This document shows, one piece after another, positions 23,076 to 50,890 of a stretch of DNA of 64,000 nucleotides. Every line of letters begins with the position of its first letter. Position 1 is the first letter of the stretch. Under the pieces are notes generated by a model that saw only the letters and a list, made by a program, of their open reading frames with translations, had not been told where the DNA came from and did not search any database. Both the position numbers and the translations under genes were made by a program. This DNA is from Nocardioidaceae bacterium (GTDB taxonomy: Bacteria > Actinomycetota > Actinomycetes > Propionibacteriales > Nocardioidaceae), in the NCBI GenBank assembly GCA_046330515.1, contig JAXLSP010000006.1:55068-119067 (forward strand). The letters are read 5' to 3'.

Positions 23076-23240
23076 CCCGGTCCCGGCCCCGTCCGGCCCT
23101 CGGCCCGGCCCTCGGCGCGGCCGTCGCGTATCACGAACGCGCGACGACCCTCCTCTTCTGCGTCATCACCCGATGAGACGCCCGTCACTCAAGTGACGGC
23201 ATCGGCTGCCGAACGGAATGAGCAGAAGGGAGGCCCGACC

Positions 23241-23390
23241 ATGTGGGACCACGTCGACGAGCGGCACACGCAGCTCACCCGCGACCGCCCGTGCGTCGCC
23301 TGCGGCCATGCCCTGCACCTGTTCCTGCCGTGCTCGGACACCTGCGACTGCCGGCCCGAGCTGCCCGGTCCGCCCGGGTTCGCCGCCTGA
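23241..23390 (+). CDS. Small (49 aa) Cys-rich hypothetical protein
   Basis: Strong SD GAAGGGAGG 7 nt upstream of the ATG. Cys pattern CxxC...CxxxCxC. No family recognised. Confidence 0.35.
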   Translation: MWDHVDERHTQLTRDRPCVACGHALHLFLPCSDTCDCRPELPGPPGFAA

Positions 23391-23445
23391 CCGGGGTCAC
23401 GCTCGCCACCCGGAACCGGCTCGGCGTCGGGGCCGTCCCACCGGC

Positions 23446-24786: not shown

Positions 24787-24862
24787 ACTCGGGAGTCGCA
24801 CGTCACCCCCTGGCCGACGCCGGCAGGGGGCTGTCGTGCTGTCCCCCTCACCAGGAGCCACC

Positions 24863-27800
24863 GTGACCCTGACCGGCCTCACCGCCGCCGTCCTCACCGA
24901 CCCCGTCCTCGCCGAGGCGATGGCCGACGCCCGCTCCGGCCTGCTGCCCGAGCTCGACCTGACCGGGCCCTCGGCCGTCCGGCCGTTCGTGGTCGCGGGC
25001 CTGGTCGAGGCCGGCCGGACGGTCCTCGCCGTCACCGCCACCGCCCGTGAGGCCGAGGACCTGGTCGAGTCGCTCGCGGACCTGGTGGATCCCACGGCGG
25101 TCGCCTACTACCCGAGCTGGGAGACGCTGCCGCACGAGCGGCTGAGCCCGAGGTCCGACACGGTCGGCCGGCGGCTGGCCGTGCTCCGCCGGCTGCGGCA
25201 CCCCGGGTCCGACGCCACGAACGGCCCGGTCAGCGTGGTCGTGGCGCCGGTCCGATCGGTGCTCCAGCCCCAGGTCGCGGGCCTCGGCGACCTCGAGCCC
25301 GTCGAGCTCGAGCCGGGCGACACCGCCCCGCTGGAGGACGTCGTACGGCGCCTCGCCGCCGCGGCCTACACCCGCGTCGACCTGGTCGAGAAGCGCGGCG
25401 AGTTCGCGGTGCGGGGCGGCATCGTCGACGTCTTCCCGCCCACCGAGGAGCACCCGCTGCGCGTGGAGTTCTGGGGCGACGACGTCGAGGAGATCCGCAG
25501 CTTCGCCGTGGCCGACCAGCGCACCCTCGAGTCGGTCGAGCGCCTCTGGGCACCGCCCTGTCGCGAGCTGCTGCTCACCGACGACGTCCGCCGCCGGGCC
25601 GCCGCCCTCGGCCAGGCGCATCCGCAGCTGCTCGAGCTCACCGACCGGATCGCGGCCGGGGTGGCCGTCGAGGGCATGGAGTCGCTGTCGCCGGTGCTCG
25701 TGGACCACATGGAGCTGCTCGTCGACGTCATGCCCGAGGACACCACGGTCGTCGTGCTCGACCCCGAGCGGGCCCGCACGCGTGCCCACGACCTGGTCGC
25801 CACGAGCGAGGAGTTCCTCGGAGCGAGCTGGGCCGCGGCGGCCGGCGGCGGCAAGGCGCCGATCGACCTGGGGGCGGCGTCCTACCGCGGCCTCGGCGAG
25901 GTCCGGGCCCACAGCCTCGCCCACGGCAAGCCGTGGTGGTCGGTCAGCCCGTTCGGCATCGCCGACGACGCGCCCGCCACGACGATCCTCGACGAGGGCG
26001 CGCCCAGCCGGCCGCTCGCGGCGACGCCGACCGAGGAGTACCGCGGCGACCTCGAGGCCGCGGTCCGGGACATGAAGGGCTGGCTCGCCGACGGCTTCCG
26101 CGTCGTCGTCGTCCAGCAGGGGCACGGCACGGCCCAGCGCACCGTCGAGGCGCTGGGGGAGCGCGACGTGGCGGCGCGGCTCGTCGACGCGGTCGCCGAC
26201 GAGCCGGCCGTGGGAGTCGTGACCGTGACGACCGGCTGCCTCCAGCACGGTCTGGTCGACGCCGAGCGCCGCCTGGTCGTGCTGACCGGCGACGACCTCT
26301 CGGGCCAGTCGTCCTCGACGCGCGACATGCGCAAGATGCCGGCGCGGCGCAAGCGGCAGATCGACCCGCTGGAGCTCAAGGCCGGCGACTACGTGGTCCA
26401 CGAGCAGCATGGCGTGGGCAGGTTCGTGGAGATGCGGCAGCGCGAGGTGCACGGAGCTACCCGCGAGTACCTCGTGCTGGAGTACGGCGCCTCCAAGCGC
26501 GGCGGGCCGCCCGACCGGTTGTTCGTGCCCGCCGACTCGCTGGACCAGGTCACCCGCTATGTCGGCGGCGAGCAGCCGTCCCTCGACCGTCTGGGAGGCG
26601 CCGACTGGGCCAAGCGCAAGGGCCGGGCGCGCCGCGCCGTACGCCAGATCGCGGCGGAGCTGATCAAGCTCTACGCAGCCCGGCAGGCCACGCAAGGGTT
26701 CGCCTTCGGGCCGGACACACCGTGGCAGCGCGAGCTCGAGGACGCCTTCCCGTTCACCGAGACGCCCGACCAGCTCACGACCGTCGACGAGGTCAAGGCC
26801 GACATGCGCCGGACCGTGCCGATGGACCGGCTCGTGTGCGGCGACGTGGGCTACGGCAAGACCGAGATCGCCGTACGCGCGGCGTTCAAGGCCGTCCAGG
26901 ACGGCAAGCAGGTCGCGGTCCTCGTGCCCACCACCCTGCTCGTGCAGCAGCACTTCTCGACCTTCGCCGAGCGGATGGGCGCGTTCCCCGTCACCCTCCA
27001 GGCCCTCTCGCGCTTCCAGACCGACAAGGAGGCGCGCGAGGTCATGGAGGGGATGGCCGACGGCTCGGTCGACATCGTCATCGGCACCCACCGGCTGCTC
27101 AACCCCGACGTGCGGTTCAAGAACCTCGGGCTCATCGTCGTGGACGAGGAGCAGCGCTTCGGCGTCGAGCACAAGGAGCAGATGAAGCGGCTGCGCACCT
27201 CCGTCGACGTGCTGTCGATGTCGGCCACCCCGATCCCGCGCACGCTCGAGATGGCGATCACCGGCATCCGGGAGATGTCGACGATCACCACGCCGCCCGA
27301 GGAGCGTCACCCGGTGCTGACCTACGTCGGCGCCTACGAGGACCGGCAGGTCGTCGCCGCCATCCGGCGCGAGCTGCTCCGCGACGGCCAGGTGTTCTTC
27401 ATCCACAACCGGGTGAACTCCATCGAGAAGGCCGCCGCGCGGATCCGCGAGCTGGTCCCGGAGGCGAGGGTCGCCGTGGGCCACGGCCAGATGAGCGAGC
27501 ACCAGCTCGAGCAGGTGATGCTCGACTTCTGGGAGAAGCGCTTCGACGTCCTGGTGTGCACCACCATCGTCGAGTCGGGCCTCGACGTGTCCAACGCCAA
27601 CACGATGATCATCGAGCGGGCCGACATGCTCGGCCTGTCCCAGCTGCACCAGCTCCGCGGCCGGGTCGGCCGGTCCCGCGAGCGGGCCTACGCCTACTTT
27701 CTCTACCCGGCGGAGAAGCCGCTCACCGAGACGGCGCACGAGCGCCTGGCCACGCTGGCCCAGCACTCCGACCTCGGCGGCGGCATGGCGATCGCCATGA

Positions 27801-28408
27801 AGGACCTCGAGATCCGCGGCGCCGGCAACCTGCTCGGCGGCGAGCAGTCGGGCCACATCGCCGACGTCGGCTTCGACCTCTATGTCCGCCTCGTCGGGGA
27901 GGCCGTCTCGGAGTTCCGCGGCGACAAGGAGGAGGAGCTCGCCGAGGTGCGGATCGAGCTGCCCGTCGACGCGCACCTCCCGCACGACTACATCCCCTCC
28001 GAGCGGCTGCGGCTGGAGATCTACAAGCGGCTCGCCGAGGTCCGGACCGACGAGGACGTCGACCAGATCCGCGAGGAGCTCGTCGACCGCTATGGCGAGC
28101 CGCCGCAGGAGGTGGCCTCGCTGCTCCTCGTCGCGCGGTTCCGGGCCCGGGCCCGCCGCGCAGGCGTCGGCGAGGTCACGATCTCCGGGAAGTTCGTGCG
28201 GTTCGCGCCCGTCGAGCTGCCCGACTCGCGCGTCGTACGCCTCCAGCGGCTCTATCCCAAGAGCGTCGTCAAGGCGCCCGTGCGCACCATCCTGGTGCCC
28301 CGCCCCCACACCGGAGGGGTCGGGGGGCATCCGGTCGCGGGCATCGCCCTGCTTGAATGGGCCCGGACGGTTCTCGACTCCGTCATCGACCCCGAGGAGC
28401 ATTCGTGA
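24863..28408 (+). CDS. mfd: Transcription-repair coupling factor
   Basis: GTG at 24863 with AGGAG 5 nt upstream (the ORF also opens at 24836). CarD-like domain, DEAD/DEAH helicase motifs (GDVGYGKTE, DEEQRFG) and a TRCF C-terminal domain. Confidence 0.95.
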   Translation: MTLTGLTAAVLTDPVLAEAMADARSGLLPELDLTGPSAVRPFVVAGLVEAGRTVLAVTATAREAEDLVESLADLVDPTAVAYYPSWETLPHERLSPRSDTVGRRLAVLRRLRHPGSDATNGPVSVVVAPVRSVLQPQVAGLGDLEPVELEPGDTAPLEDVVRRLAAAAYTRVDLVEKRGEFAVRGGIVDVFPPTEEHPLRVEFWGDDVEEIRSFAVADQRTLESVERLWAPPCRELLLTDDVRRRAAALGQAHPQLLELTDRIAAGVAVEGMESLSPVLVDHMELLVDVMPEDTTVVVLDPERARTRAHDLVATSEEFLGASWAAAAGGGKAPIDLGAASYRGLGEVRAHSLAHGKPWWSVSPFGIADDAPATTILDEGAPSRPLAATPTEEYRGDLEAAVRDMKGWLADGFRVVVVQQGHGTAQRTVEALGERDVAARLVDAVADEPAVGVVTVTTGCLQHGLVDAERRLVVLTGDDLSGQSSSTRDMRKMPARRKRQIDPLELKAGDYVVHEQHGVGRFVEMRQREVHGATREYLVLEYGASKRGGPPDRLFVPADSLDQVTRYVGGEQPSLDRLGGADWAKRKGRARRAVRQIAAELIKLYAARQATQGFAFGPDTPWQRELEDAFPFTETPDQLTTVDEVKADMRRTVPMDRLVCGDVGYGKTEIAVRAAFKAVQDGKQVAVLVPTTLLVQQHFSTFAERMGAFPVTLQALSRFQTDKEAREVMEGMADGSVDIVIGTHRLLNPDVRFKNLGLIVVDEEQRFGVEHKEQMKRLRTSVDVLSMSATPIPRTLEMAITGIREMSTITTPPEERHPVLTYVGAYEDRQVVAAIRRELLRDGQVFFIHNRVNSIEKAAARIRELVPEARVAVGHGQMSEHQLEQVMLDFWEKRFDVLVCTTIVESGLDVSNANTMIIERADMLGLSQLHQLRGRVGRSRERAYAYFLYPAEKPLTETAHERLATLAQHSDLGGGMAIAMKDLEIRGAGNLLGGEQSGHIADVGFDLYVRLVGEAVSEFRGDKEEELAEVRIELPVDAHLPHDYIPSERLRLEIYKRLAEVRTDEDVDQIREELVDRYGEPPQEVASLLLVARFRARARRAGVGEVTISGKFVRFAPVELPDSRVVRLQRLYPKSVVKAPVRTILVPRPHTGGVGGHPVAGIALLEWARTVLDSVIDPEEHS

Positions 28409-29779: not shown

Positions 29780-31565
29780 TATTGGGGATCGGGCGTCAAG
29801 TGGCGGTTGTTTGACGTCGCCGATGCCGGTTGTCAGGATCGTTGGTGGGGAAGGTCGCCTCGTGTTGCCGACGCCGTTGGGTGTCTGGCTTTGCATGCCC
29901 CGCTGGGGCTTGGTGAGGGGCCTTCCCCGCCTTCTTGCTGCGGCGGCGCGAGCGGACCTCGGGCGGCACGGTCCACTGCTGGGCGATGATCCGTTTTGCC
30001 TGCTCTGGGGTCACCGGGGTGCCGTCGGTGTCGCAGATGACGTAGGGCATGCCGCGGCGCATGACGGCCCAGAAGCGTTCGGCGAGGTGGCCGGCAACGA
30101 CGCAGTTGGCCTTGAGGTGGTCCGCGCCGCGTTCGACCATCTGCTGGTAGTAGACCCGCGCCAACTGGGGGTCGTGTTTGCGGGCGTGATCGGCGGCCCG
30201 GATCAAGGTGACGCGCAGCAGGCTCGACCCGGCCTTGCTCATCGGCTGGCCCTTGCGGTCGGTCTCTCCGGTCTCACTCGCCCTGGGGGCAAGCCCGGCG
30301 AAGGACTTGAAGTGCCTGCCGCTGGGGAACCGCCGCGGGTCCCCGATCGCTGCGGCCAACACGGGACCGCTGACGTCGGCGACACCGGGCAGGGTGCGGG
30401 CGAGCTGTCCGACGTCGACCCATCGGTAGGCCTCCTCGCGGGCGGCCGCGTGCTGGACGAGCTGGGCCTGAACCGCGCGCAGCAGGGCGACCTCGGTGAC
30501 GATCTCGGCGGCCAGGTCGGACCATGCGATCGCGGGATGGTCGCCGTAGAGCTCGACCGCGGCAGCCGCAGCTTCGCGCCACTGCTCGGCACGAGCGGCG
30601 CCCAGGTGGTTGTGGGACGCCTTCACGATGACCGCCGTCAACCGGGCCCGCCCGGCCCTGAGCAGTGCGCGTGGGTCGGCCCACCGTTCCAAGACCGCCA
30701 GATCGGCTGCGCCCAAGTCGCCGGTCAGCGGCGTCATCGGCATCAGCTGCCGGACCAGGTCCTTGATCCGGACCTTGTGCTCGGACGCGAGCCGGGTGAG
30801 CCGGTCGACGGCACGGACCCGTCGGTCCAGCGCAGCAACCTCGACATCAGGCAGCTGCAGCGGGCGCACCGAGTCCGGCGCGACCAGCGGAAGCCGGGCC
30901 AGAGTGTCGGCGTCGATGCCGTTGCTCTTCGCGTGCCGGGACAAGAACCGGCGCAGGTCCGCGGCCTTGGCCGAGGACACCCGGAACACCAGATGGCCCC
31001 GAGCGGTGAAGAACACCGCGATCGGCAGCCAGGCCGGCCCGGTCGGCTCGAAGACCACCTCCAACCGCGTGCCCGGATCCGCGCCGGCCAACGCCGCCTG
31101 CTCGATCAGCGTCAGGCTCTCCACCGTCGGGCGGCATCGTCGTCGACACACCTCGCGCCCGTCCTCGGCCAGCACCCGCACCGTGTGGTCGCTGGCGATA
31201 CCCAGGTCGATCCCGACCAGCCTCCTGGACCCCATTGCTCACCTTCTTGTCGTGTCCTCGATATCGACTCCGACAGGTCCGCCGAGCGGGCTACCTCACG
31301 GCCACGGTCCCAAGAGCGGGCGAGCGATCTGACGACGGCTCCCACTCATGCGCTGAAACCGGACCCGACCTCGCTGGGCCGGTCCACTTCCCTCATCCGG
31401 GGCATCCGTGGCCAGACCAGCGATGGCAATCAGCCGAACGGGGCCACCGACCCGCAGGCCGACACCCCAGAGCCCGTCTCGACGCCACTCACCGGACCAG
31501 CCGGGACACTCACCATCCCGGGACCCGCGACGGTGATCAACCGCCGGAGCTCCTTACATGAGCTC
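29780..31565 (-). mobile_element. IS110-family insertion sequence (boundaries approximate)
   Basis: Transposase gene plus ~330 nt of upstream non-coding DNA, wedged between the convergent 3' ends of mazG and the 31575..33032 gene. Flanks are locally lower in GC. Confidence 0.55.
29796..31235 (-). CDS. IS110-family transposase (DEDD recombinase)
   Basis: N-terminus VGIDLGIASDHTVRV (DEDD_Tnp_IS110-like). C-terminal Transposase_20-like LRAVQAQL...LARTLPGVADVSGPVLAAAIGDPRRFPSGRHFKSFAGLAP. Confidence 0.9.
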   Translation of the reverse strand: MGSRRLVGIDLGIASDHTVRVLAEDGREVCRRRCRPTVESLTLIEQAALAGADPGTRLEVVFEPTGPAWLPIAVFFTARGHLVFRVSSAKAADLRRFLSRHAKSNGIDADTLARLPLVAPDSVRPLQLPDVEVAALDRRVRAVDRLTRLASEHKVRIKDLVRQLMPMTPLTGDLGAADLAVLERWADPRALLRAGRARLTAVIVKASHNHLGAARAEQWREAAAAAVELYGDHPAIAWSDLAAEIVTEVALLRAVQAQLVQHAAAREEAYRWVDVGQLARTLPGVADVSGPVLAAAIGDPRRFPSGRHFKSFAGLAPRASETGETDRKGQPMSKAGSSLLRVTLIRAADHARKHDPQLARVYYQQMVERGADHLKANCVVAGHLAERFWAVMRRGMPYVICDTDGTPVTPEQAKRIIAQQWTVPPEVRSRRRSKKAGKAPHQAPAGHAKPDTQRRRQHEATFPTNDPDNRHRRRQTTAT

Positions 31566-31574
31566 GCGCGCCTG

Positions 31575-34474
<2,900 letters not shown>

Positions 34475-34493
34475 TCCTTGTCATGATGGGGCG

Positions 34494-35069
34494 GTGACCC
34501 GTCCCCGCCGACCGCACTCCGGGCCGGGCCGCAGCAGGCGGCCCGGCGACCGGGGCGGCCAGCGCCCGGTCGCGCAGCCGACGGCGGCCGTGTCGGGCGA
34601 CGGCGCACGCCCGCGCTCGCGGGTGACCGGACGCGCGGTCATCCTCGGGCTCGTGCTCGCCGTGCTGACGATCTCCTATGCCTCGTCCATGCGCGCCTAC
34701 CTGCAGCAGCGCTCGCACATCACCGACCTCAAGGCGCAGATCGCCGCCAAGGAGTCGAGCATCGCCGACCTGGAGCGCGAGAAGGCCCGCTGGGACGACC
34801 CGGCGTTCGTGCGCGAGCAGGCGCGCAAGCGCTTCGGCTACATGGAGCCCGGCGAGACGGCCTGGGTCGTCGTCGGGGCCGACGGCAAGCCCCTCGACGA
34901 CGGCGCCGGACTGAGCGACCCCGCGGACATCGCGCCCCAGGAGCCCACGGCCTGGTGGGACAAGGCCTGGGGCTCGGTCGAGCTGGCCGGTCACCCGCCG
35001 CCGGTCGAGGACCCGCCGGCCACCCGGATCCGCCAGCCCGCCGACAAGATCACCTCGGGGTCGCGGTGA
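34494..35069 (+). CDS. Septum formation initiator (FtsB/DivIC-like)
   Basis: Single TM then a coiled coil: LQQRSHITDLKAQIAAKESSIADLEREKARWDDPAFVREQARKRFGY. Start is approximate. Confidence 0.7.
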   Translation: MTRPRRPHSGPGRSRRPGDRGGQRPVAQPTAAVSGDGARPRSRVTGRAVILGLVLAVLTISYASSMRAYLQQRSHITDLKAQIAAKESSIADLEREKARWDDPAFVREQARKRFGYMEPGETAWVVVGADGKPLDDGAGLSDPADIAPQEPTAWWDKAWGSVELAGHPPPVEDPPATRIRQPADKITSGSR

Positions 35070-35545
35070 TCGAGGAGGCCGACGAGGCGGCGGTCGCCGC
35101 GCAGCTCGGTCGGTCGCCGCGGGCGATCCACGATGTGGGCCACCGGTGCCCCTGCGGTCGACCGGACGTGGTCGTCACCGAGCCACGGCTGCCCGACGGC
35201 ACGCCGTTCCCCACGACGTTCTATCTCACCTGCCCGCGCGCCGCCTCGCGCATCGGCAGCCTCGAGGGGTCCGGGCTGATGCGCGAGATGCAGGACCGCC
35301 TGGGCGAGGACGCCGAGCTGGCCAGCGCCTACGCCGCGGCGCACGACGCCTACCTCGCCGCCCGCGCGGCGCTGGGCGAGGTCCCCGAGATCGAGGGCAT
35401 CTCGGCCGGGGGGATGCCCGACCGGGTCAAGTGCCTCCACGTGCTCGCGGGCCAGGCGCTGGCCCAGGGACGCGGCGTCAACCCGCTCGGCGACGAGGTG
35501 CTCGACCTCCTGGGCGCGTGGTGGGCCGACGGGCCGTGCGTGTGA
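35066..35545 (+). CDS. DUF501 domain protein
   Basis: GTGA overlap. CPCGRPDVVVTEPRLPDGTPFPTTFYLTCP motif. Position matches Rv1025-type synteny. Confidence 0.75.
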   Translation: MIEEADEAAVAAQLGRSPRAIHDVGHRCPCGRPDVVVTEPRLPDGTPFPTTFYLTCPRAASRIGSLEGSGLMREMQDRLGEDAELASAYAAAHDAYLAARAALGEVPEIEGISAGGMPDRVKCLHVLAGQALAQGRGVNPLGDEVLDLLGAWWADGPCV

Positions 35546-36483
35546 CCGGCGCCGCGGGCGAAGGCCGGGAGCGGCCCGTGATCGCCGCGGTCGACTGCGG
35601 GACCAACACCATCAAGCTGCTCATCGGCCGGTTGCCCGAGGTGTTCGTCCGCGAGTCGCGGACGGTCCGGCTGGGCCAGGGCGTCGACCGCTCCGGCCGG
35701 CTCGCGGACGAGGCCCTCGACCGGGCGTTCGCGGCCATCGACGACTATGCCGAGCTGGTGGCGGCCCACCCGGTGGAGCGGATCCGGTTCTGCGCCACCT
35801 CGGCGACCCGCGACGCCTCCAACGCCGCGGTGTTCGCCGCCGGGGTCCGTGCGCGACTGGGCGTCGACCCCGAGGTCGTCTCGGGCGACGAGGAGGCGCG
35901 GCTGACCTTCGACGGCGCGGTCCGCAACCTGCGCGAGGACCCGGCCGAGCCCGTCCTGGTCGTCGACATCGGCGGCGGCTCCACCGAGCTCGTGCTCGGC
36001 AGGAGGGCCGACGACCGCACCCTCGTCGAGGCGGCGGTGTCGCTCGACATCGGCTCGGTGCGCCTCTTCGAGCGCCACCTCCACTCGGACCCGCCCTCCC
36101 CGGATGAGCTGCGGGCGTGCGTCGCCGACGTCGACGCCGCCCTCGACACGACCGAGGTCCCGCTCGCCGCGGCACGCACCGTGGTCGGCGTGGCCGGCTC
36201 GATCATCACCGTGGGCGCCGGGGTCCTCGACCTCCCCGCCTATGACCCCCGGCGGACCGACCAGGCGGTCGTCGCCGTCGACGAGGTGCACGCCTATGTC
36301 GAGCGGCTCGGCCGGATGACGCACGCCGAGCGCCTCGCCCTTCCCTACATGCACCCCGGCCGTGCCGACGTCATCGTCGCCGGCGCCCTGATCCTCGACC
36401 GGGTGCTCCGCCGGACGACCCTGGCGTCGATGACCGTGTCCGAGGCCGACATCCTCGACGGCATCGCCTGGTCGATCGCATGA
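35542..36483 (+). CDS. ppx: Ppx/GppA family exopolyphosphatase
   Basis: GTGA overlap. IAAVDCGTNTIKLLIG and VVDIGGGSTELV ASKHA-fold motifs. Confidence 0.85.
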   Translation: MTGAAGEGRERPVIAAVDCGTNTIKLLIGRLPEVFVRESRTVRLGQGVDRSGRLADEALDRAFAAIDDYAELVAAHPVERIRFCATSATRDASNAAVFAAGVRARLGVDPEVVSGDEEARLTFDGAVRNLREDPAEPVLVVDIGGGSTELVLGRRADDRTLVEAAVSLDIGSVRLFERHLHSDPPSPDELRACVADVDAALDTTEVPLAAARTVVGVAGSIITVGAGVLDLPAYDPRRTDQAVVAVDEVHAYVERLGRMTHAERLALPYMHPGRADVIVAGALILDRVLRRTTLASMTVSEADILDGIAWSIA

Positions 36484-36580: not shown

Positions 36581-37399
36581 GTGCTCCCGCACCCGCTGAC
36601 GGGGCAGGAGTTCGGGAGCCCGGTGGCGCCGGGGACGGGGTGGCCGGACGACCCGGCGGCTCCGGGAACGCCCGTCGCCGCGACCGCGGCCGCCGTACGT
36701 CGCCTGGCGCGCACGGCCGACCTGGCCGAGCTCGACGCCCGCGTCTCGGTGTGCCGCGCCTGTCCGCGCCTCGTGCGGTGGCGCGAGGACGTGGCGGTGG
36801 CCAAGCGTGCGTCCTTCGCCGACCAGCCCTACTGGGGCCGCCCGATCTCCGGGTGGGGCGACGACGCGCCGCGGGTGCTCATCGTGGGCCTGGCGCCGGC
36901 CGCCAACGGCGGCAACCGGACCGGGCGGGTCTTCACCGGTGACTCCTCGGGCGACTGGCTCTTCGCCAGCCTGCACCGCGTCGGCCTCGCCACCCTGCCC
37001 ACCAGCGTGCACGCGGGGGACGGGCAGGCCCTGCTGGGAGCCCGGATGGTCGCCACGGTGCGCTGCGCCCCGCCGGAGAACAAGCCGACCCCGGAGGAGC
37101 GCGACACCTGCGCGCCGTGGCTGCTGCGGGAGATCGAGCTCGTCGCCCCGACCCTTCGGGCCGTCGTGGCGCTCGGCGCCTACGGCTGGGACGCCGCGCT
37201 GCGCGCCTTCGCCGCCGTGGGGTTCGCGGTCCCGCGGCCCAAGGCCCGGTTCGGCCACGGCGCCGAGGTCGCCCTCGTCCGGGAGGGTGCCGAGGTGAGC
37301 CTCCTGGGCTGCTACCACCCCAGCCAGCACAACACGTTCACCGGCCGGCTCACGCCGGCGATGCTCGACGACGTGCTCGGCCGGGCCGCGGCCCACTGA
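36581..37399 (+). CDS. Uracil-DNA glycosylase superfamily protein (family 5/UdgB-like)
   Basis: [30 protein letters not shown] and CYHPSQHN motifs. GTG start after GGGGGAGG. Confidence 0.85.
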
Positions 37400-37429: not shown

Positions 37430-38029
37430 TCAGCGGTTCCCGGGACGCGACGCCTTCACGACCGGCTGGATCGCGCCGTTGATCTCGGCGTTCGTGGGCG
37501 GCTTGCCGACTCCGTTGAAGGGCACGAACTCGACCTGGAGGGTCGTCTCGTCGAAGATCGTCGTGGTCTCGCCCGGGTCTGCCATGAACTTGACGACGTG
37601 CGGACCGGCCTTGACGGGGATGGACACGTTGGTGTCGCAGTTCTCCTCCTGATTGGTGCCCGGGTCCAGCTCGATCGAGCGCTCGGTCCCGAACACGTAG
37701 GCGGGGCCGAGGTTGATGCTGCAGTTGGCGAACGTCGCGCTCGACGAGTCGAAGACGTCGGACGACGCGACGGTCACCAGATAGCCCTTGGTCGGTGCGA
37801 CGATCTTGACCTTCAGCGCGACGGTCTGGCCGGTCACGCCGGAGACGGCGTCGTCGTCCACCTGGGCCGAGGCGACGCGGACCAGGAGGTCGTTGGGCCC
37901 GAGGGTCTTGTCCTTGATGTCTCCACCGGTGATCTGTCCGGCGGCATAGCTGGTGCCGCCGACGGCTGCGAGGGCGAGCGCGCAGCCGGCGACGGTGAGC
38001 ACGGTCTTGCGCGAGGAGGAACGGGTCAT
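37430..38029 (-). CDS. Secreted hypothetical protein (~199 aa)
   Basis: Inner ATG at 38029 with GGAG upstream. Signal peptide ends SYAAGQ. Distant paralog of 42915..43496. Confidence 0.55.
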   Translation of the reverse strand: MTRSSSRKTVLTVAGCALALAAVGGTSYAAGQITGGDIKDKTLGPNDLLVRVASAQVDDDAVSGVTGQTVALKVKIVAPTKGYLVTVASSDVFDSSSATFANCSINLGPAYVFGTERSIELDPGTNQEENCDTNVSIPVKAGPHVVKFMADPGETTTIFDETTLQVEFVPFNGVGKPPTNAEINGAIQPVVKASRPGNR

Positions 38030-38218: not shown

Positions 38219-38292
38219 GCCCCCGTATCCCAACCGGCAGAGGAAGTCGCCTTAAAAGCGACTGAGTGTGGGTTCGACCCCCACCGGGGGCA
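38219..38292 (+). tRNA. 74-nt class I tRNA with anticodon UAA (Leu by anticodon; architecture atypical for tRNA-Leu)
   Basis: Manual fold: GCCCCCG-TA-TCCC-AACCGGCAG-AGGA-A-GTCGC-CTTAAAA-GCGAC-TGAGT-GTGGG-TTCGACC-CCCAC-CGGGGGC-A. U8, A14, G18G19, A21, U33, T54-T55-C56 and G53:C61 are present. CCA is not encoded. Confidence 0.75.
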
Positions 38293-38449
38293 CCTCGCAC
38301 CTCCGCGTCCAGCCGAGCCCGCGCGACGCCCGTCCGGGAACACCGCCCCGCGGTCGCTCGTTGTGGAAGGTGAGCCTCGGTAGGATCTGAGGCTCAGACG
38401 CGTTCCCAGGGTGGGAACCGTCCCAGGCCTCCGAGGAGGGAGACCAGCC

Positions 38450-39322
38450 ATGCGCAGCAACAACCCGGTGTTCAACCGGTCGCCGCAGTTCAACGGTCAG
38501 TACACCGACACCCAGGTCCACCCGGGCTCCGGTGCGACCTACCCGGGGTACGGCGCTCCGCAGCAGGGCTACAGCGACCCCTCCACCTGGAGCGTCGGCA
38601 GCCCCTCGACGGTGGCGAGTGCCCCCATGACCATCGACTCGGTGGTCCAGAAGTCCGCGATGACCCTGGGTCTCGTGATGGTGATGGCCGCAGTCACCTG
38701 GTGGTGGATCGGTGACATCACCTACGGCGAGGGCATCGCCAACCAGAAGAACCTCGGCCAGCTCGGGATGGCGGCGCTCGTCGGTTCGGGCGGCGCGTTC
38801 GTCCTGTCCCTCGTCAACTCCTTCAAGCGCGTGGTGAGCGCCCCGCTGGTGCTCGCGTTCGCGGCCCTCGAGGGCGTGGCCCTGGGCGCCATCAGCAAGC
38901 TGTTCGACGCCCAGTTCGGTGGCGGCATCGTCACCACGGCCGTCCTCGGCACCTTCGCCGCGTGCGCCGGCACCCTGGCCGCCTACCGCTTCTTCGACAT
39001 CAAGGTCGGCAACAAGTTCCGGATGATGGTGATGGCCGCGGTCTTCGGCATGGTGGGCCTCAGCCTGCTGAGCCTGGTGCTCAGCCTGTTCGGCATCGAG
39101 ACCGGCCTCTTCGGCTTCGGCGGCCTCGGCCTGCTGACCGCCGTCGCCGGCCTGGTGCTCGGTGTCTTCATGCTGGTGCTCGACTTCGACTTCGTCGAGC
39201 GCGGCATCGCCGCACGGCTGCCGGAGCAGGAGTCCTGGCGGGCCGCGTTCGCGCTGACCGTCAGCCTGGTCTGGATCTACACCAACCTGCTGCGCCTGCT
39301 GGCGATCCTGCAGCGCGACTGA
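38450..39322 (+). CDS. Bax inhibitor-1/YccA family membrane protein
   Basis: ATG at 38450 after GAGGAGGG. Unstructured N-terminal tail followed by 7 TM segments. Confidence 0.8.
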   Translation: MRSNNPVFNRSPQFNGQYTDTQVHPGSGATYPGYGAPQQGYSDPSTWSVGSPSTVASAPMTIDSVVQKSAMTLGLVMVMAAVTWWWIGDITYGEGIANQKNLGQLGMAALVGSGGAFVLSLVNSFKRVVSAPLVLAFAALEGVALGAISKLFDAQFGGGIVTTAVLGTFAACAGTLAAYRFFDIKVGNKFRMMVMAAVFGMVGLSLLSLVLSLFGIETGLFGFGGLGLLTAVAGLVLGVFMLVLDFDFVERGIAARLPEQESWRAAFALTVSLVWIYTNLLRLLAILQRD

Positions 39323-39393: not shown

Positions 39394-40428
39394 TCAGGCC
39401 TGGGCGGTCAGGTCCACCGCGGCGTCCGGGTCGCTCTCGGGGCTCTCCACGTCGCCCTGCGGGCTGCTCGAACGGCGCCGCAGCTGCACCCAGCGGCCCC
39501 GGAGCCCACGCTGCGCGCCGGCCACCTCGGTGCCGTCCAGCTCGGTGCCCGGCAGCCGGGCCGCCTCGACGGCGGCGGCGGCCACGGGCAGCACGACGTC
39601 GCCGCGACGGATCGCGAGCGCATCGGTCTCGGCCGGCAGCATGTCGAGCGCCGCGAGCACCGAGGGCAGCAGCACGGACGCGAGCTGGTGGTAGCCGTCG
39701 GCCGACGGGTGGAACTGGTCGGGCCCGAACAGCAGGGCCGGGGCGGCGGCGAACTCGGGGCCCAGGATCGAGCCGAGCGAGACGCTCCGCCCGCCGGCCT
39801 CGACGACCGCGATCGCCTGGGCCGCGGCCAGCCGGCGCGACCAGGACCGCGCGACCTGCTTGAGCGGTGGGGCGATCGGCTTGATGGTCCCCAGATCGGG
39901 GCAGGTGCCGACCACCACCGCCACACCGGCCTCGCGGAGGCGGCGTACGCCCTCACCCAGCCGCTGCACCGACTGCGAGGGCAGCACCGTGTGGGTCACG
40001 TCGTTGGCGCCGATGAGGACCACCGCGACGTCGGGGTCGGTCGGCAGCGCCCGGTCGATCTGTGCGTCGAGGTCGGAGGTCTGGGCCCCGATGACGCCGA
40101 ACGAGCGGAGATAGACACGCCGGTCCCCGTTGGTGGCCACGCCGGAGGCGAGCAGCGCACCCGGGGTCGCCTCGACGCGGTCGACGCCATAGCCGGCGGC
40201 GCTGGAGTCCCCGAGCAGCGCGATCTTGACGCCGGGACCGGGGCGGCCGCGGCCATACCAGCCGGTGGCGTCGGGCGGCCGTCGCCCGCCCGGCTCGCCG
40301 ATCGTGCGGCGGGCCAGCTTGGCCTCGGCGCGGAGCAGGCCATAGAGCGCGCCGCCGAGCAGCGAGACGCCGCCACCGCCGTAGGCCGCGGCGGAGGCCA
40401 GCCTGCGGGCGGCGGAGGCCTTGCTCAT
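39394..40428 (-). CDS. SGNH/GDSL hydrolase family protein
   Basis: Block I IALLGDSSAAGYG, block III-like GANDVTH, block V-like region, N-terminal TM. Confidence 0.8.
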   Translation of the reverse strand: MSKASAARRLASAAAYGGGGVSLLGGALYGLLRAEAKLARRTIGEPGGRRPPDATGWYGRGRPGPGVKIALLGDSSAAGYGVDRVEATPGALLASGVATNGDRRVYLRSFGVIGAQTSDLDAQIDRALPTDPDVAVVLIGANDVTHTVLPSQSVQRLGEGVRRLREAGVAVVVGTCPDLGTIKPIAPPLKQVARSWSRRLAAAQAIAVVEAGGRSVSLGSILGPEFAAAPALLFGPDQFHPSADGYHQLASVLLPSVLAALDMLPAETDALAIRRGDVVLPVAAAAVEAARLPGTELDGTEVAGAQRGLRGRWVQLRRRSSSPQGDVESPESDPDAAVDLTAQA

Positions 40429-40481: not shown

Positions 40482-41897
40482 ATGGAGTACGTCGACTCGC
40501 TGCTCGAGCTCATCGGTGACACCCCCCTGCTGCGGCTCGCGCCCGTGCTCGAGGGCCCGGGCCACGAGGGCCTCGGCACGGCCGTCGGCCCGGTCGTGCT
40601 GGCCAAGCTGGAGTACCTCAACCCCGGCGGGTCGGTGAAGGACCGCATCGCGCTGCGCATGGTCGAGGCCGCCGAGGAGTCCGGGGAGCTCCAGCCGGGA
40701 GGCACGATCGTCGAGCCCACGTCGGGCAACACCGGCATCGGCCTCGCGCTGGTCGCCCAGGAGCGCGGCTACCACTGCGTCTTCGTGTGCCCCGACAAGG
40801 TGAGCGAGGACAAGCGCAGCGTCCTCAAGGCCTACGGCGCCGAGGTCGTGGTCTGCCCGACCGCCGTCGCGCCCGAGCACCCCGACTCCTACTACAGCGT
40901 CAGCGACCGGCTCGTCCGCGAGACGCCGGGCGCCTGGAAGCCCGACCAGTACTCCAACCAGCAGAACCCCCGCTCCCACTACGAGTCCACCGGCCCCGAG
41001 ATCTGGCGGCAGACCGAGGGCCGCGTGACGCACTTCGTGTCCGGCGTCGGCACCGGCGGCACGATCAGCGGCACCGGCCGCTTCCTCAAGGAGCAGAACC
41101 CCGGCGTCCAGGTGGTCGGCGCCGACCCCGCCGGGTCGGTCTACTCCGGCGGCACCGGTCGCCCCTATCTCGTCGAGGGCGTCGGCGAGGACTTCTGGCC
41201 GACCACCTACGACCGCGAGGTCGCCGACCGGATCATCGAGGTCAGCGACGCCGACTCCTTCGCCATGACCCGGCGGCTCGCGCGCGAGGAGGGACTGCTG
41301 GTCGGCGGCTCCTCCGGCATGGCGGTGCACGCCGCGGTCCAGCTGGCACACGAGCTCGCCGGCACTCCCGAGGGGGAGGGGGCCGTGATCGTCGTGCTCC
41401 TGCCCGACGGCGGACGGGGCTACCTGTCGAAGGTCTTCAGCGACGCCTGGCTGGCGCAGTACGGCTTCGACGTCAACGGTGCCGCCCGCGCCGCGCAGAC
41501 CGTCGGCGAGGTGCTCCGCGGCAAGTCCGGCGGTCTGCCCGACCTGGTGCACACCCACCCCAACGAGACGATCGCCGAGGCGGTCGCCATCCTCCAGGAG
41601 TACGGCGTCTCCCAGATGCCGGTCGTCCGCGCGGAGCCGCCGATCGTGGCGGCCGAGGTGGCCGGCTCGGTGTCCGAGCGCACGCTCCTCGAGGCGCTGT
41701 TCACCGGCGACGCGCGGCTGACCGACCCGGTCGAGTCCCACATGTCCGCGCCGCTGCCGACGATCGGCGCCACGGAGCCGGCGAGCGCGGCCGTCGACCT
41801 GCTCGAGAGCGCCGACGCCGTCCTCGTGCACGACGACGGCAAGCCGGTCGGCGTGCTGACCCGGCAGGACCTCCTGGCCTACGTGGCCCGGAGCTGA
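40482..41897 (+). CDS. cbs: Cystathionine beta-synthase (PLP domain + CBS pair)
   Basis: IGDTPLLRL...NPGGSVKDR...EPTSGNTGIGLA, then a tandem CBS domain at the C-terminus. Confidence 0.9.
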   Translation: MEYVDSLLELIGDTPLLRLAPVLEGPGHEGLGTAVGPVVLAKLEYLNPGGSVKDRIALRMVEAAEESGELQPGGTIVEPTSGNTGIGLALVAQERGYHCVFVCPDKVSEDKRSVLKAYGAEVVVCPTAVAPEHPDSYYSVSDRLVRETPGAWKPDQYSNQQNPRSHYESTGPEIWRQTEGRVTHFVSGVGTGGTISGTGRFLKEQNPGVQVVGADPAGSVYSGGTGRPYLVEGVGEDFWPTTYDREVADRIIEVSDADSFAMTRRLAREEGLLVGGSSGMAVHAAVQLAHELAGTPEGEGAVIVVLLPDGGRGYLSKVFSDAWLAQYGFDVNGAARAAQTVGEVLRGKSGGLPDLVHTHPNETIAEAVAILQEYGVSQMPVVRAEPPIVAAEVAGSVSERTLLEALFTGDARLTDPVESHMSAPLPTIGATEPASAAVDLLESADAVLVHDDGKPVGVLTRQDLLAYVARS

Positions 41898-49162: not shown

Positions 49163-50890
49163 ATGTCGATCTTTGCCGAGCTGACGCCCCGGGTGTCCGA
49201 GGCCATCGAGCGCGCGCTCGGCCCGGAGTTCGGCGGGCAGGACCCGGTGCTGCGTCCCAGCCAGTTCGGCGACGTCCAGGCCAACGCCGCGCTGGCGCTG
49301 GCCAAGCGCGTCGGCCGGTCCCCGCGTGACCTGGCCGCCAGCATCGTGCGCGAGCTGGACCTCGACGGCCTGTGCGACACGGTCGAGGTCAGCGGTCCCG
49401 GCTTCGTCAACCTGGTGCTGAGCGACTCCTGGATCTCGCGGCTCGTGTCGGCCCAGGCTGCCGACCCTCGCCTGGGCGTCCCGGTGCAGGACCGCCAGCA
49501 CATCCCCATCGACTACTCCGCCCCCAACGTCGCCAAGGAGATGCACGTCGGTCACCTCCGGACCACCGTGGTCGGTGACGCGCTCGCGCGGGTGCTCGAG
49601 CACCTCGGCCACCACGTGGTCCGGCAGAACCACATCGGCGACTGGGGCACCCCCTTCGGGATGCTCATCGAGCACCTCCTGGACGCCGGCGAGGACAGCG
49701 ACGAGGCGCGGCTGGTGGAGTCCGACCCCAACGCGTTCTACCAGGCGGCCCGCACGGCCTTCGACGCCGACGAGGAGTTCGCCCGGCGCGCACGAGCGCG
49801 CGTGGTCCTGCTGCAGGGAGGCGACCCGGAGACGCTGCGGCTCTGGGGCGAGCTCGTCGAGCTGTCCAAGCACTACTTCAACCGCATCTACGGCCGGCTC
49901 GGGGTGACCCTGACCGACGACGACCTCGCCGGTGAGTCGTCCTACAACGCCGACCTGGCCGGCATCTGCGACGAGCTCGAGGCCGCCGGGCTCGCGACGG
50001 TCAGCGACGGGGCGCTCTGTGTGTTCCTCGACGGCTACACCGGCCGTGAGGGCAGGCCGGTGCCCCTGATCATCCGCAAGTCCGACGGCGGCTACGGCTA
50101 TGCGACGACCGACCTGGCCACCGTCCGCCACCGGGTCGAGAGGCTGCACGCGGACCGCATCCTCTATGTGATCGGGGCGCCCCAGGCGCTGCACCTCACC
50201 ATGGTCTGGGAGACCGCCCGTCGCGCCGGCTGGCTGCCCGACACCACGACCGTCGTCCACGTGCAGATCGGCAACGTGCTGGGCGACGACCGCAAGCTGC
50301 TCCGCACCCGCTCGGGTGCGCCGCTGCGCCTCATGACCCTCCTGGACGAGGCGGAGTCGACGGCCCGCGCGGTCATCGACGAGGCGCGGCCGGACCTCGA
50401 CGAGCGGACGCGCGCCGCGATCGCGCCGCAGGTGGGCATCGGGGCGGTGAAGTACGCCGACCTCTCGGTGGCCCACGACAGCGAGTACGTCTTCGACCTC
50501 GACCGCATGGTGGCGCTGACCGGCAACACCGGCCCCTACCTGCAGTACGCCGCCGCCCGGATCCGGTCGATCTTCCGGACGGCCGGGCTGCGGGCCGGCG
50601 AGGTGGCGGACGGGATCGTCGTGGCCGCTCCCGAAGAACGGGCGCTCGCCCTGCTCCTCACCGAGTTCGCGACGGTCGTCGAGCAGGTCGGAGACCACCT
50701 CGAGCCCCACCGGCTGTGCGCCTACCTCTTCCAGCTGGCCCAGGCGTTCTCGGCGTTCTATGAGGCCTGCTCGGTGCTCAAGGCCGAGCCCGAGGTCCGC
50801 GCCTCCCGGCTCGCGCTGTGCGGTCTGACGCTGCGGGTCCTCGAGACGGGTCTCGACCTGCTGGGCCTGGAGTCGCCCGAGCGGATGTAG
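49163..50890 (+). CDS. argS: Arginine--tRNA ligase
   Basis: SAPNVAKEMHVGHLR (HIGH motif), full-length class I ArgRS architecture, C-terminal DALR-like anticodon-binding domain. Confidence 0.95.
   Translation: MSIFAELTPRVSEAIERALGPEFGGQDPVLRPSQFGDVQANAALALAKRVGRSPRDLAASIVRELDLDGLCDTVEVSGPGFVNLVLSDSWISRLVSAQAADPRLGVPVQDRQHIPIDYSAPNVAKEMHVGHLRTTVVGDALARVLEHLGHHVVRQNHIGDWGTPFGMLIEHLLDAGEDSDEARLVESDPNAFYQAARTAFDADEEFARRARARVVLLQGGDPETLRLWGELVELSKHYFNRIYGRLGVTLTDDDLAGESSYNADLAGICDELEAAGLATVSDGALCVFLDGYTGREGRPVPLIIRKSDGGYGYATTDLATVRHRVERLHADRILYVIGAPQALHLTMVWETARRAGWLPDTTTVVHVQIGNVLGDDRKLLRTRSGAPLRLMTLLDEAESTARAVIDEARPDLDERTRAAIAPQVGIGAVKYADLSVAHDSEYVFDLDRMVALTGNTGPYLQYAAARIRSIFRTAGLRAGEVADGIVVAAPEERALALLLTEFATVVEQVGDHLEPHRLCAYLFQLAQAFSAFYEACSVLKAEPEVRASRLALCGLTLRVLETGLDLLGLESPERM

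What the first reader, a model, noticed from the sequence alone, without database searches (positions are those of the whole stretch)
38219..38292. Well-formed class I (short variable loop) tRNA carrying the Leu anticodon UAA
The 74-nt sequence folds into a canonical cloverleaf:
- a 7-bp all-GC acceptor stem and a 5-bp anticodon stem
- loop CUUAAAA, which gives anticodon UAA
- a 5-nt variable loop TGAGT
- a GTGGG/TTCGACC/CCCAC T-arm and discriminator A

Bacterial tRNA-Leu are class II with a long variable arm. This one has none, although its D-loop (AACCGGCAGA) is Leu-like. UUA is the rarest codon in high-GC actinobacteria, and its tRNA (bldA) is a developmental regulator in Streptomyces.

A class I tRNA reading UUA could be a degenerate Leu tRNA, a non-Leu isoacceptor with a switched anticodon (codon reassignment or deliberate mistranslation), or a regulatory tRNA. 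Conservation of all the tertiary-interaction nucleotides argues against a dead pseudogene.
Basis: seen in the sequence. Interest (0 to 1): 0.65.

Follow-up and report, generated by a model that had tools for sequence, protein, structure and literature searches.

The report
Ordinary short-armed leucine tRNA (UAA)
This is a real, conserved leucine tRNA that reads the rare UUA codon and lacks the usual long extra arm, but that short form is the normal one at this chromosomal spot in several actinomycete groups and is a known kind of tRNA, so it is ordinary.

Summary
Window 38219-38292(+) is a 74-nt cloverleaf tRNA with anticodon UAA and a 5-nt variable loop (ARAGORN; Rfam 55.9 bits).

It is not an oddity. 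The same short tRNA(UAA) sits upstream of the BaxI gene in 62 of 80 Nocardioides/Nocardioidaceae loci. Covariation is strong: 99.6% of cells paired, and 11 of 20 pairs show compensatory changes.

The same type I tRNA(UAA) occupies the same neighbourhood (eno-…-ppx-…-tRNA) in Nonomuraea and Nocardia, and lies about 4 kb downstream of ppx in Arthrobacter. In Streptomyces that neighbourhood holds the 85-nt class II bldA. The window tRNA is therefore the positional counterpart of bldA, built on a different scaffold.

Type I tRNA-Leu is already documented. S. coelicolor tRNALeu(CAA) has a 5-nt variable loop and is leucylated by the single LeuRS (Fan et al. 2019, PMC6614811).

In viral contigs this scaffold carries almost only Leu anticodons (137 of 141). 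The few real TTA codons in related loci mostly align with Leu.

Best reading: a functional tRNA-Leu(UAA). There is no sign of reassignment, mistranslation or decay. Whether Nocardioides also has a CAA or a class II UAA isoacceptor could not be settled. Low interest; a new member of a known kind.

The parts
38219..38292 (+). tRNA-Leu(UAA) gene, type I (short variable loop), 74 nt from position 1 to discriminator A73. C74 and C75 follow at 38293-38294; A76 is not encoded.
   Evidence: ARAGORN; Rfam RF00005 at 55.9 bits, full length; sequence; covariation in 49 distinct relatives
38219..38225 (+). Acceptor stem, 5' half (GCCCCCG). It pairs with 38285-38291 (CGGGGGC).
   Evidence: pairs 5-69, 6-68 and 7-67 show compensatory changes
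38228..38244 (+). D arm UCC-CAACCGGCAGA-GGA. It has a 3-bp stem, a C13.A22 mismatch, A14, A15 and G18G19. This is the Leu-type D loop.
   Evidence: 10-25 U-A to G-C and 11-24 C-G to A-U changes; the same D arm occurs on type I tRNAs with Leu anticodons in viral contigs
38246..38262 (+). Anticodon arm GUCGC-CUUAAAA-GCGAC, with anticodon UAA at 38253-38255 and A37, A38
   Evidence: 4 of 5 stem pairs show compensatory changes
38263..38267 (+). Variable loop UGAGU (5 nt; no long arm)
   Evidence: the family consensus is NCAGU; S. coelicolor type I tRNALeu(CAA) has ACAGC, and 5 nt is the minimum for good leucylation (PMC6614811)
38268..38284 (+). T arm GUGGG-UUCGACC-CCCAC (T54, psi55, C56 and A58 positions are canonical)
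33050..36483 (+). Synteny anchor upstream: eno (33050-34474), divIC/ftsB (34356-35069), DUF501 (34955-35545) and ppx/gppA (35146-36483). Start codons are approximate.
   Evidence: Pfam; the same block precedes the type I tRNA(UAA) in Nonomuraea and Nocardia (eno and ppx matched by tblastn), while in Arthrobacter only ppx was matched; the same block precedes class II bldA in Streptomyces-type loci
36581..37399 (+). Uracil-DNA glycosylase superfamily gene, between ppx and the tRNA
   Evidence: Pfam; same order in Nonomuraea L306
37430..38029 (-). Small gene with no Pfam match, divergent from the tRNA. Its N terminus looks like a signal or lipoprotein leader; this is read from the sequence and was not tested.
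38450..39322 (+). BaxI_1/YccA family membrane protein gene, 157 nt downstream of the tRNA. It was used as the synteny handle.
   Evidence: Pfam; homologues named Nocardioides; 80 related loci

Best explanation
It is the organism's regular tRNA-Leu(UAA), built on the type I (short variable loop) Leu scaffold that many Actinomycetes and many phages use. By position it is the counterpart of Streptomyces bldA.

Shown here:
- The gene is a canonical cloverleaf.
- It is conserved with compensatory changes across the genus.
- It keeps anticodon UAA in all 62 Nocardioides loci that have it.
- It lies downstream of eno-divIC-DUF501-ppx, as do the type I tRNA(UAA) of Nonomuraea and Nocardia and the class II bldA of Streptomyces. 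In Arthrobacter only ppx was seen upstream.

Inferred from the S. coelicolor type I tRNALeu(CAA) biochemistry and from bacterial LeuRS biology:
- The single LeuRS charges it with leucine without reading the anticodon. It would use U8-A14, the D/T elbow, a variable loop of at least 5 nt and the A73-CCA end.
- A76 is added after transcription.
- On the ribosome it reads UUA and, by U34 wobble, probably UUG.

UUA is almost unused in these genomes, so its workload in housekeeping genes is tiny unless it also serves UUG.
For: - Prediction: ARAGORN and Rfam both call it.
- Conservation: a 73-75-nt tRNA(taa), measured to the discriminator, lies upstream of BaxI on the same strand in 62 of 80 Nocardioides/Nocardioidaceae loci.
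- Covariation: 99.6% of cells pair, 11 of 20 pairs have changes on both sides, and 0 of 500 shuffles reach the observed values. Slid controls fall to 41-54% paired.
- Known kind: S. coelicolor type I tRNALeu(CAA) has a 5-nt variable loop (ACAGC) and is leucylated by ScoLeuRS. U8-A14 is an identity element and at least 5 nt of variable loop is required (PMC6614811).
- Family: the window tRNA is 74-80% identical to type I tRNAs of Nonomuraea (UAA and CAA), Nocardia and Arthrobacter. It is only 51-60% identical to class II UAA tRNAs.
- Synteny: Nonomuraea L306 has eno, ppx, UDG, type I tRNA(UAA), BaxI and GDSL in the window's order. Nocardia L307 has eno, ppx and type I tRNA(UAA). Arthrobacter L201 has ppx and type I tRNA(UAA).
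- bldA position: S. avermitilis-type loci have eno, DivIC, DUF501, Ppx, an ABC transporter and then an 85-nt tRNA-Leu(taa). So do metagenome contigs whose Ppx is 72-77% identical to Streptomyces Ppx.
- Leu identity of the scaffold: of 141 distinct viral-contig tRNAs with this D arm and type I spacing, 137 carry Leu anticodons (TAA 62, TAG 31, CAA 30, CAG 7, GAG 6, AAG 1). The sample is enriched for YAA by the first scan.
- Annotation: relatives are annotated tRNA-Leu in deposited phage genomes.
- Codon meaning: TTA at the last codon of a peptide-deformylase-like gene (4 loci) aligns with CTG/CTC in the other 6 orthologues. TTA in a UDG gene aligns with Leu in 16 orthologues.
Against: - No direct evidence of expression or charging. 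The only metatranscriptome holding this region has no contig over the tRNA, which is uninformative.
- No isotype-specific tRNA models were available.
- The TTA sample is very small. One TTA (L025) aligns with TTC (Phe) in 4 orthologues.
- The LeuRS of this organism, and whether it has the leucine-specific-domain features needed for type I substrates, was not examined.
- E. coli LeuRS does not charge the S. coelicolor type I tRNA (PMC6614811), so charging depends on the host enzyme.
Confidence: 0.88

Rival explanations
1. A bldA-like regulatory tRNA. It is a normal Leu tRNA whose availability gates translation of the few TTA-containing genes, as bldA does for development and antibiotic production in Streptomyces. 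This is an added role on top of the best explanation, not an alternative identity.
For: - It occupies the bldA position.
- TTA is nearly absent: there is no bona fide TTA codon in the window's genes, and only a handful in about 214,000 codons of related loci.
Against: - No expression data were obtained.
- The set of TTA genes could not be listed, because only 64 kb plus 8-9-kb loci were available.
- If the tRNA also reads UUG (4.7 per 1000 codons) and no CAA isoacceptor exists, it would be needed constitutively.
- The TTA sites actually seen are C-terminal residues of housekeeping-type genes.
Confidence: 0.2
2. A non-Leu tRNA carrying a Leu anticodon: codon reassignment or deliberate mistranslation, as with the tRNAProX/ProRSx pairs of some Streptomyces.
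For: - None positive.
- One TTA codon aligns with Phe codons in 4 orthologues.
Against: - The scaffold carries Leu anticodons in 137 of 141 viral examples.
- It is homologous to a tRNA shown to accept Leu.
- The TTA sites with the most orthologues align with Leu.
- The neighbours are UDG, a small gene of unknown function, BaxI and GDSL lipase. The only synthetase in the window is a standard ArgRS about 11 kb away.
Confidence: 0.03
3. A decaying Leu tRNA gene (pseudogene) that lost its variable arm.
For: It lacks the long arm. A76 is not encoded.
Against: - 49 distinct sequences keep 99.6% pairing through compensatory changes.
- The anticodon, D loop, T loop and A73 are invariant or nearly so.
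- The same form occurs in four orders.
Confidence: 0.02
4. A tRNA reserved for a non-ribosomal aminoacyl-transfer reaction (cell wall or natural-product synthesis).
For: None beyond its unusual shape.
Against: - It has canonical G18G19 and T54-psi55-C56 elements.
- No Fem-type, cyclodipeptide-synthase or similar gene lies nearby.
- The context is housekeeping and is conserved across orders.
Confidence: 0.03

Closest known systems
Type I tRNALeu(CAA) of Streptomyces coelicolor (Fan, Huang, Ji and Wang 2019, NAR 47:6369; PMC6614811)
   Same: - Both come from an actinomycete.
- Both have a 5-nt variable loop (Sco ACAGC; the family here is NCAGU).
- Both have the U8-A14, G18G19, U54-A58 and A73 elements named in the paper.
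- Both carry a Leu anticodon of the UUR box.
- A type I CAA tRNA of this family in Nonomuraea is 78% identical to the window tRNA.
   Different: - The anticodon here is UAA, not CAA.
- Here the tRNA sits at the bldA position.
- Charging was shown for the S. coelicolor tRNA only.
- The S. coelicolor sequence itself was not available for alignment; only the features stated in the paper's text could be compared.
bldA, the class II tRNALeu(UAA) of Streptomyces
   Same: - Both have anticodon UAA.
- Both read the rarest codon of a high-GC genome.
- Both lie in the same neighbourhood downstream of eno-divIC-DUF501-ppx.
   Different: - bldA is 85 nt with a long variable arm and a different D arm (GGUGGAAUGCAGACAC).
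- It is only 51-60% identical to the window tRNA.
- The regulatory role of bldA is not demonstrated for the type I form.
Animal mitochondrial tRNALeu(UUR)
   Same: It is a type I Leu tRNA with anticodon UAA. Human mitochondrial LeuRS charges the S. coelicolor type I tRNA (PMC6614811).
   Different: - It is not charged by ScoLeuRS.
- Mitochondrial tRNAs have relaxed elbows, whereas this one has fully canonical D/T elements.
Phage-encoded short tRNA-Leu genes (Mycobacterium cluster C1, Gordonia, Enterococcus, cyanophage, Pseudomonas and Bacillus phages)
   Same: They are 76-82% identical to the window tRNA over 82-100% of its length. They have the same D arm and short variable loop, and they are annotated tRNA-Leu.
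   Different: They are carried by phages of many hosts and GC contents, and with all six Leu anticodons. Their function in infection is unknown.

Membership tests
Canonical elongator tRNA (Rfam RF00005) | Full cloverleaf scoring above the curated threshold | tested here: met
   55.9 bits against 29, model positions 1-71 of 71; ARAGORN agrees
Canonical elongator tRNA (Rfam RF00005) | Helices maintained by compensatory substitutions among relatives | tested here: met
   99.6% paired, 11 of 20 pairs with double changes, 0 of 500 shuffles
Type I bacterial tRNA-Leu (S. coelicolor tRNALeu(CAA) type) | Short variable loop of 5 nt, including nucleotide 48 | tested here: met
   UGAGU at 38263-38267; requirement stated in PMC6614811
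Type I bacterial tRNA-Leu (S. coelicolor tRNALeu(CAA) type) | U8-A14, G18G19, U54-A58 and discriminator A73 | tested here: met
   All are present. U8, A14, G18G19, T54, A58 and A73 are invariant in the 49 distinct sequences of alignment A2
Type I bacterial tRNA-Leu (S. coelicolor tRNALeu(CAA) type) | Leucine anticodon on this scaffold | tested here: met
   UAA here. 137 of 141 scaffold members in viral contigs carry Leu anticodons. CAA in Nonomuraea; CAG on an M. alvei plasmid
Type I bacterial tRNA-Leu (S. coelicolor tRNALeu(CAA) type) | Sequence homology to a member with proven Leu acceptance | tested here: inconclusive
   The S. coelicolor sequence was not obtainable. Homology was shown only to Nonomuraea type I CAA (78%) and to the features printed in the paper
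Type I bacterial tRNA-Leu (S. coelicolor tRNALeu(CAA) type) | Leucylation by the host LeuRS (dependent on the leucine-specific domain) | not testable with these tools
   This needs an aminoacylation assay. The LeuRS gene is not in the window.
bldA (Streptomyces tRNALeu(UAA)) | Anticodon UAA | tested here: met
bldA (Streptomyces tRNALeu(UAA)) | Class II structure with a long variable arm (17 nt in S. coelicolor) | tested here: not met
   The variable loop is 5 nt. Identity to class II UAA tRNAs is 51-60%
bldA (Streptomyces tRNALeu(UAA)) | Location downstream of eno-divIC-DUF501-ppx | tested here: met
   Window; Streptomyces-type loci L309/L310 and L221
bldA (Streptomyces tRNALeu(UAA)) | Dispensable for growth, with TTA confined to developmental and secondary-metabolism genes | not testable with these tools
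   Only rarity was shown: no TTA in the window's genes. Listing the TTA genes needs whole genomes; dispensability needs genetics.
Mistranslating tRNA with a dedicated synthetase (tRNAProX/ProRSx type) | Anticodon that contradicts the identity of the tRNA body | tested here: not met
   The body is the Leu scaffold and the anticodon is a Leu anticodon
Mistranslating tRNA with a dedicated synthetase (tRNAProX/ProRSx type) | Paralogous synthetase gene adjacent to the tRNA | tested here: not met
   The neighbours are UDG, a small gene of unknown function, BaxI and GDSL lipase. The only synthetase is a standard ArgRS at 49163-50887

The most novel reading that the evidence does not exclude
The UUA-reading tRNA-Leu at the conserved eno-divIC-DUF501-ppx locus exists in two structural classes. 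It is type I in Nocardioides, Nonomuraea, Nocardia and Arthrobacter, and class II (bldA) in Streptomyces.

If type I is the ancestral state for Actinomycetes, then bldA is a secondary replacement at that locus, and LeuRS (its leucine-specific domain) co-evolved with the switch.

Together with the abundance of the same scaffold in phages with all six Leu anticodons, type I tRNA-Leu would then be a widespread second Leu scaffold in bacteria. It would not be the rarity the 2019 paper assumed.
Probability: 0.35. Interest if true: 0.45.

Novelty: new member of a known kind. Interest (0 to 1): 0.25.

Why it matters
For this window it matters little. It is the normal tRNA-Leu(UAA) gene and should be annotated as such.

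The comparative picture is mildly useful to tRNA and Streptomyces biologists in three ways:
- The only paper on bacterial type I tRNA-Leu treats it as a Streptomyces curiosity with anticodon CAA. Here the type I scaffold with UAA is the regular occupant of the bldA locus in at least four actinomycete orders.
- The scaffold is common in phage contigs.
- This gives a natural system for asking how LeuRS accommodates both scaffolds, and whether rare-codon control of the bldA kind exists outside Streptomyces.

Tried and rejected
**Searches that gave nothing**
- A metagenome scan used a pattern derived from the variable-arm nucleotides printed in PMC6614811 plus CTTAAAA. It gave 0 hits. The S. avermitilis-type bldA later showed loop CUUAAAC and a different arm.
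- A literature search for descriptions of phage type I tRNA-Leu found nothing. The M. tuberculosis LeuRS paper mentions only class II tRNALeu(CAG).

**Looking for other UUR decoders in Nocardioides isolates**
- I laid three Nocardioides isolate assemblies (X22, X24, X26) on the type I tRNA. Each gave one identical UAA copy and no CAA paralogue at 80% likeness or above.
- Laying them on a class II bldA-type reference gave nothing.
- The controls also gave nothing: a tRNA-Cys, class II UAG and UAA tRNAs, and type I CAA and CAG tRNAs from other taxa. In Nonomuraea the UAA and CAA type I paralogues are only 76% identical.
- These negatives therefore say nothing about whether Nocardioides has other UUR decoders. 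I withdrew the idea that this tRNA is the sole UUR reader.

**Expression**
- One metatranscriptome holds part of the region but has no contig over the tRNA. This is uninformative.

**Signals and synteny**
- The promoter/terminator consensus scan found no promoter-like site. It found one terminator-like site on the minus strand, inside the start of the BaxI gene.
- The Nonomuraea type I CAA locus (L200) shares no genes with the window, so the CAA gene is not the positional counterpart.

**TTA codon count**
- Most of the 26 TTA codons in stop-to-stop ORFs lie in non-coding 5' extensions, in antisense shadow ORFs or in the tRNA itself.

Full report
**1. The observation**

The 74 bases at 38219-38292(+) read GCCCCCG-UA-UCC-CAACCGGCAGA-GGA-A-GUCGC-CUUAAAA-GCGAC-UGAGU-GUGGG-UUCGACC-CCCAC-CGGGGGC-A.
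- ARAGORN reports tRNA-Leu(taa), the only tRNA in the window.
- Rfam's tRNA model matches end to end at 55.9 bits, against a threshold of 29.
- The D stem has three Watson-Crick pairs and a C13.A22 mismatch.
- C74 and C75 are encoded; A76 is not.

**2. Organism and context**

The window is 70-75% G+C. Pfam gives the following genes:

| Coordinates | Gene |
|---|---|
| 24836-28405 | mfd |
| 29799-31235 (-) | IS110 transposase |
| 33050-34474 | eno |
| from 34356 | divIC |
| from 34955 | DUF501 |
| 35146-36483 | ppx/gppA |
| 36581-37399 | UDG-family gene |
| 37430-38029 (-) | small gene, no Pfam match |
| 38219-38292 | the tRNA |
| 38450-39322 | BaxI_1/YccA |
| 39394-40428 (-) | GDSL lipase |
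| 40482-41897 | cystathionine beta-synthase |
| 49163-50887 | standard ArgRS |

This is core chromosome. The BaxI protein's named relatives are all Nocardioides. The DNA is found in wastewater and activated-sludge metagenomes.

**3. Conservation**

An alignment of BaxI proteins retrieved 80 Nocardioides/Nocardioidaceae loci from the species-representative genome collection.
- In 62 of them ARAGORN finds a short tRNA(taa) upstream of BaxI on the same strand. It is 73-75 nt to the discriminator.
- The other 18 loci showed no tRNA within the roughly 4 kb (or less) of upstream sequence retrieved. The tRNA-to-BaxI distance varies from 100 nt to 3.75 kb, so these are not evidence of absence.
- Covariation was counted on alignment A2: 47 distinct 74-nt Nocardioides/Nocardioidaceae sequences, plus the Nonomuraea CAA and Arthrobacter UAA tRNAs (49 in all). 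The cloverleaf pairs in 99.6% of cells. Eleven of 20 pairs change on both sides. No shuffle reaches the observed values. Sliding the partners drops pairing to 41-54%.
- U8, A14, A15, G18G19, the T loop and A73 are invariant across the alignment. U34 is invariant in the Nocardioides sequences and in Arthrobacter; the Nonomuraea CAA tRNA has C34.

This is a gene under purifying selection for tRNA function.

**4. What kind of tRNA**

The literature search found Fan et al. 2019 (PMC6614811).
- S. coelicolor has four class II Leu tRNAs, including bldA (UAA), and one type I tRNALeu(CAA) with variable loop A44-C45-A46-G47-C48.
- Its single LeuRS charges both types. U8-A14 is an identity element for both, and five variable-loop nucleotides are the minimum.
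- The leucine-specific domain of LeuRS enables type I charging. E. coli LeuRS does not charge the type I tRNA.

A short-armed bacterial Leu tRNA is therefore an established kind.

The window tRNA has the same loop length, a near-identical family consensus (NCAGU) and the named elements. It is 74-80% identical to type I tRNAs of other actinomycetes and only 51-60% identical to class II UAA tRNAs.

**5. Is the scaffold Leu-specific?**

I scanned viral contigs for the D arm CCCAAnnGGyAGAGG with type I spacing to the T loop, leaving the anticodon free. I pooled these hits with an earlier YAA-restricted scan.
- This gave 141 distinct tRNAs from contigs of 28-71% G+C.
- Their anticodons are TAA 62, TAG 31, CAA 30, CAG 7, GAG 6 and AAG 1, against GTG 3 and ACA 1.
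- The pooling over-represents YAA, but the point stands: all six Leu anticodons ride on this body and almost nothing else does. That is what a synthetase that ignores the anticodon predicts.

Deposited phage genomes annotate such genes as tRNA-Leu. An M. alvei plasmid carries a type I Leu(CAG) beside a class II Leu(CAA).

**6. Codon evidence**

In about 214,000 codons of GC3-supported ORFs from the window and the 80 loci, TTA occurs 26 times and TTG 1016 times.
- Most TTA hits are artefacts: 5' extensions, shadow ORFs, or the tRNA read as protein.
- The window's genes contain no bona fide TTA.
- The clearest real sites are:
  - the last codon of a peptide-deformylase-like gene in four loci, where the other 6 orthologues have CTG or CTC;
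  - a near-terminal codon of UDG in L072, where 16 orthologues have Leu;
  - one site in L025 that aligns with TTC (Phe) in four orthologues.

The sample favours Leu but is small.

**7. Position**

This changed the picture.
- Class II UAA tRNAs recovered from metagenomes lie downstream of ftsB/divIC-DUF501-ppx.
- The Ppx of one such contig is 72-77% identical to Streptomyces Ppx proteins.
- In assemblies carrying the S. avermitilis Ppx the order is eno, DivIC, DUF501, Ppx, two enzymes, an ABC transporter, then an 85-nt tRNA-Leu(taa). So bldA sits in the neighbourhood where the window has its type I tRNA.
- The Nonomuraea gerenzanensis chromosome (filed among plasmids) has eno, ppx, UDG, a 73-nt type I tRNA(UAA), BaxI and GDSL lipase in the window's order. 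It has a separate type I tRNA(CAA) elsewhere.
- Nocardia farcinica has eno, ppx and a type I tRNA(UAA).
- Arthrobacter sp. StoSoilB13 has ppx and a type I tRNA(UAA).

The type I UAA tRNA is thus the regular occupant of this locus in four orders, and the class II form was seen there only in Streptomyces-type sequences. Which state is ancestral was not determined.

**8. Mechanism**

Shown: gene structure, selection, homology and synteny.

Inferred:
- transcription as its own unit between divergent genes;
- 3' maturation with addition of A76;
- leucylation by LeuRS through the elbow, U8-A14, the 5-nt loop and the acceptor end;
- decoding of UUA and probably UUG.

Not resolved:
- Whether Nocardioides also has a CAA or a class II UAA isoacceptor. 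My attempts with isolate assemblies were uninformative, because the control tRNAs were not detected either.
- Expression.
- Any regulatory role.

**9. Verdict**

This is an ordinary, functional tRNA-Leu(UAA) of the known type I kind.

The residual interest is comparative. The bldA position carries a type I tRNA outside Streptomyces, and the scaffold is abundant in phages.

Noticed in passing
L173 and L174 carry the same D arm on class II (84-85 nt) tRNAs. I found no paper describing this.
   Followed up: partly
L001-L080, between the tRNA and BaxI (locus position about 4001): The spacer downstream of the tRNA ranges from 100 nt to 3.75 kb. In different Nocardioides species it holds unrelated genes. 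By eye these look like a histidine kinase, glycosyltransferase, aminopeptidase, TetM-like GTPase, SulP transporter and RTX-like repeats. This looks like a tRNA-adjacent variable region or insertion hot spot.
   Followed up: partly
L207 (S. anulatus plasmid pYINM00001, 310219-310305) and about 10 other Streptomyces plasmids (H43-H52): bldA-like class II tRNA-Leu(UAA) copies are carried on large Streptomyces plasmids. On pYINM00001 the copy lies just after a ScbR-family autoregulator-receptor gene. An AfsA-like gene also lies near the chromosomal bldA in L309. The plasmid copy has an A.C mismatch in its anticodon stem.
   Followed up: no
L229:4894-5761 (metagenome contig, 57% G+C): A cluster of four Leu tRNAs mixes scaffolds: type I CAA, class II UAA, class II UAG and type I CAG.
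   Followed up: no
L231 (Mycolicibacterium alvei plasmid pJCM12272): A tRNA array on a 304-kb plasmid holds class II Leu(CAA), type I Leu(CAG), Lys(UUU) and Lys(CUU).
   Followed up: no
L022:713-715, and the equivalent sites in L029, L036 and L062: A peptide-deformylase-like gene ends with a TTA codon. In L022 that codon lies 17 nt upstream of the tRNA-Leu(UAA) gene; the spacing in the other three loci was not measured. The other orthologues use CTG or CTC at that position.
   Followed up: partly
window 38371-38396: An 8-bp inverted repeat (TGAGCCTC ... GAGGCTCA, 10-nt loop) lies between the tRNA and the BaxI start, with no T run after it. It could be a tRNA 3' processing or termination signal, or a BaxI leader element.
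   Followed up: no
window 29799-31235 (-): An IS110-family transposase is inserted between mfd and eno in an otherwise conserved housekeeping stretch.
   Followed up: no
window 23218-24783 (+): A full-length bacterial serpin gene (Pfam Serpin, E 3e-90) lies next to mfd.
   Followed up: no
window 1-21900: A polysaccharide-type cluster (two sulfotransferases, a GT2 and a Wzy-like ligase) is followed by several very large secreted proteins with PKD, GH16, Laminin_G_3 and beta-propeller domains.
   Followed up: no
NZ_LT559118.1, NZ_LN868939.1, NZ_AP024648.1 (plasmid collection): Records filed as plasmids carry the core eno-ppx housekeeping region: Nonomuraea 11.85 Mb, Nocardia farcinica 2.66 Mb and Arthrobacter 1.35 Mb. 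They appear to be chromosomes or chromosome pieces.
   Followed up: no
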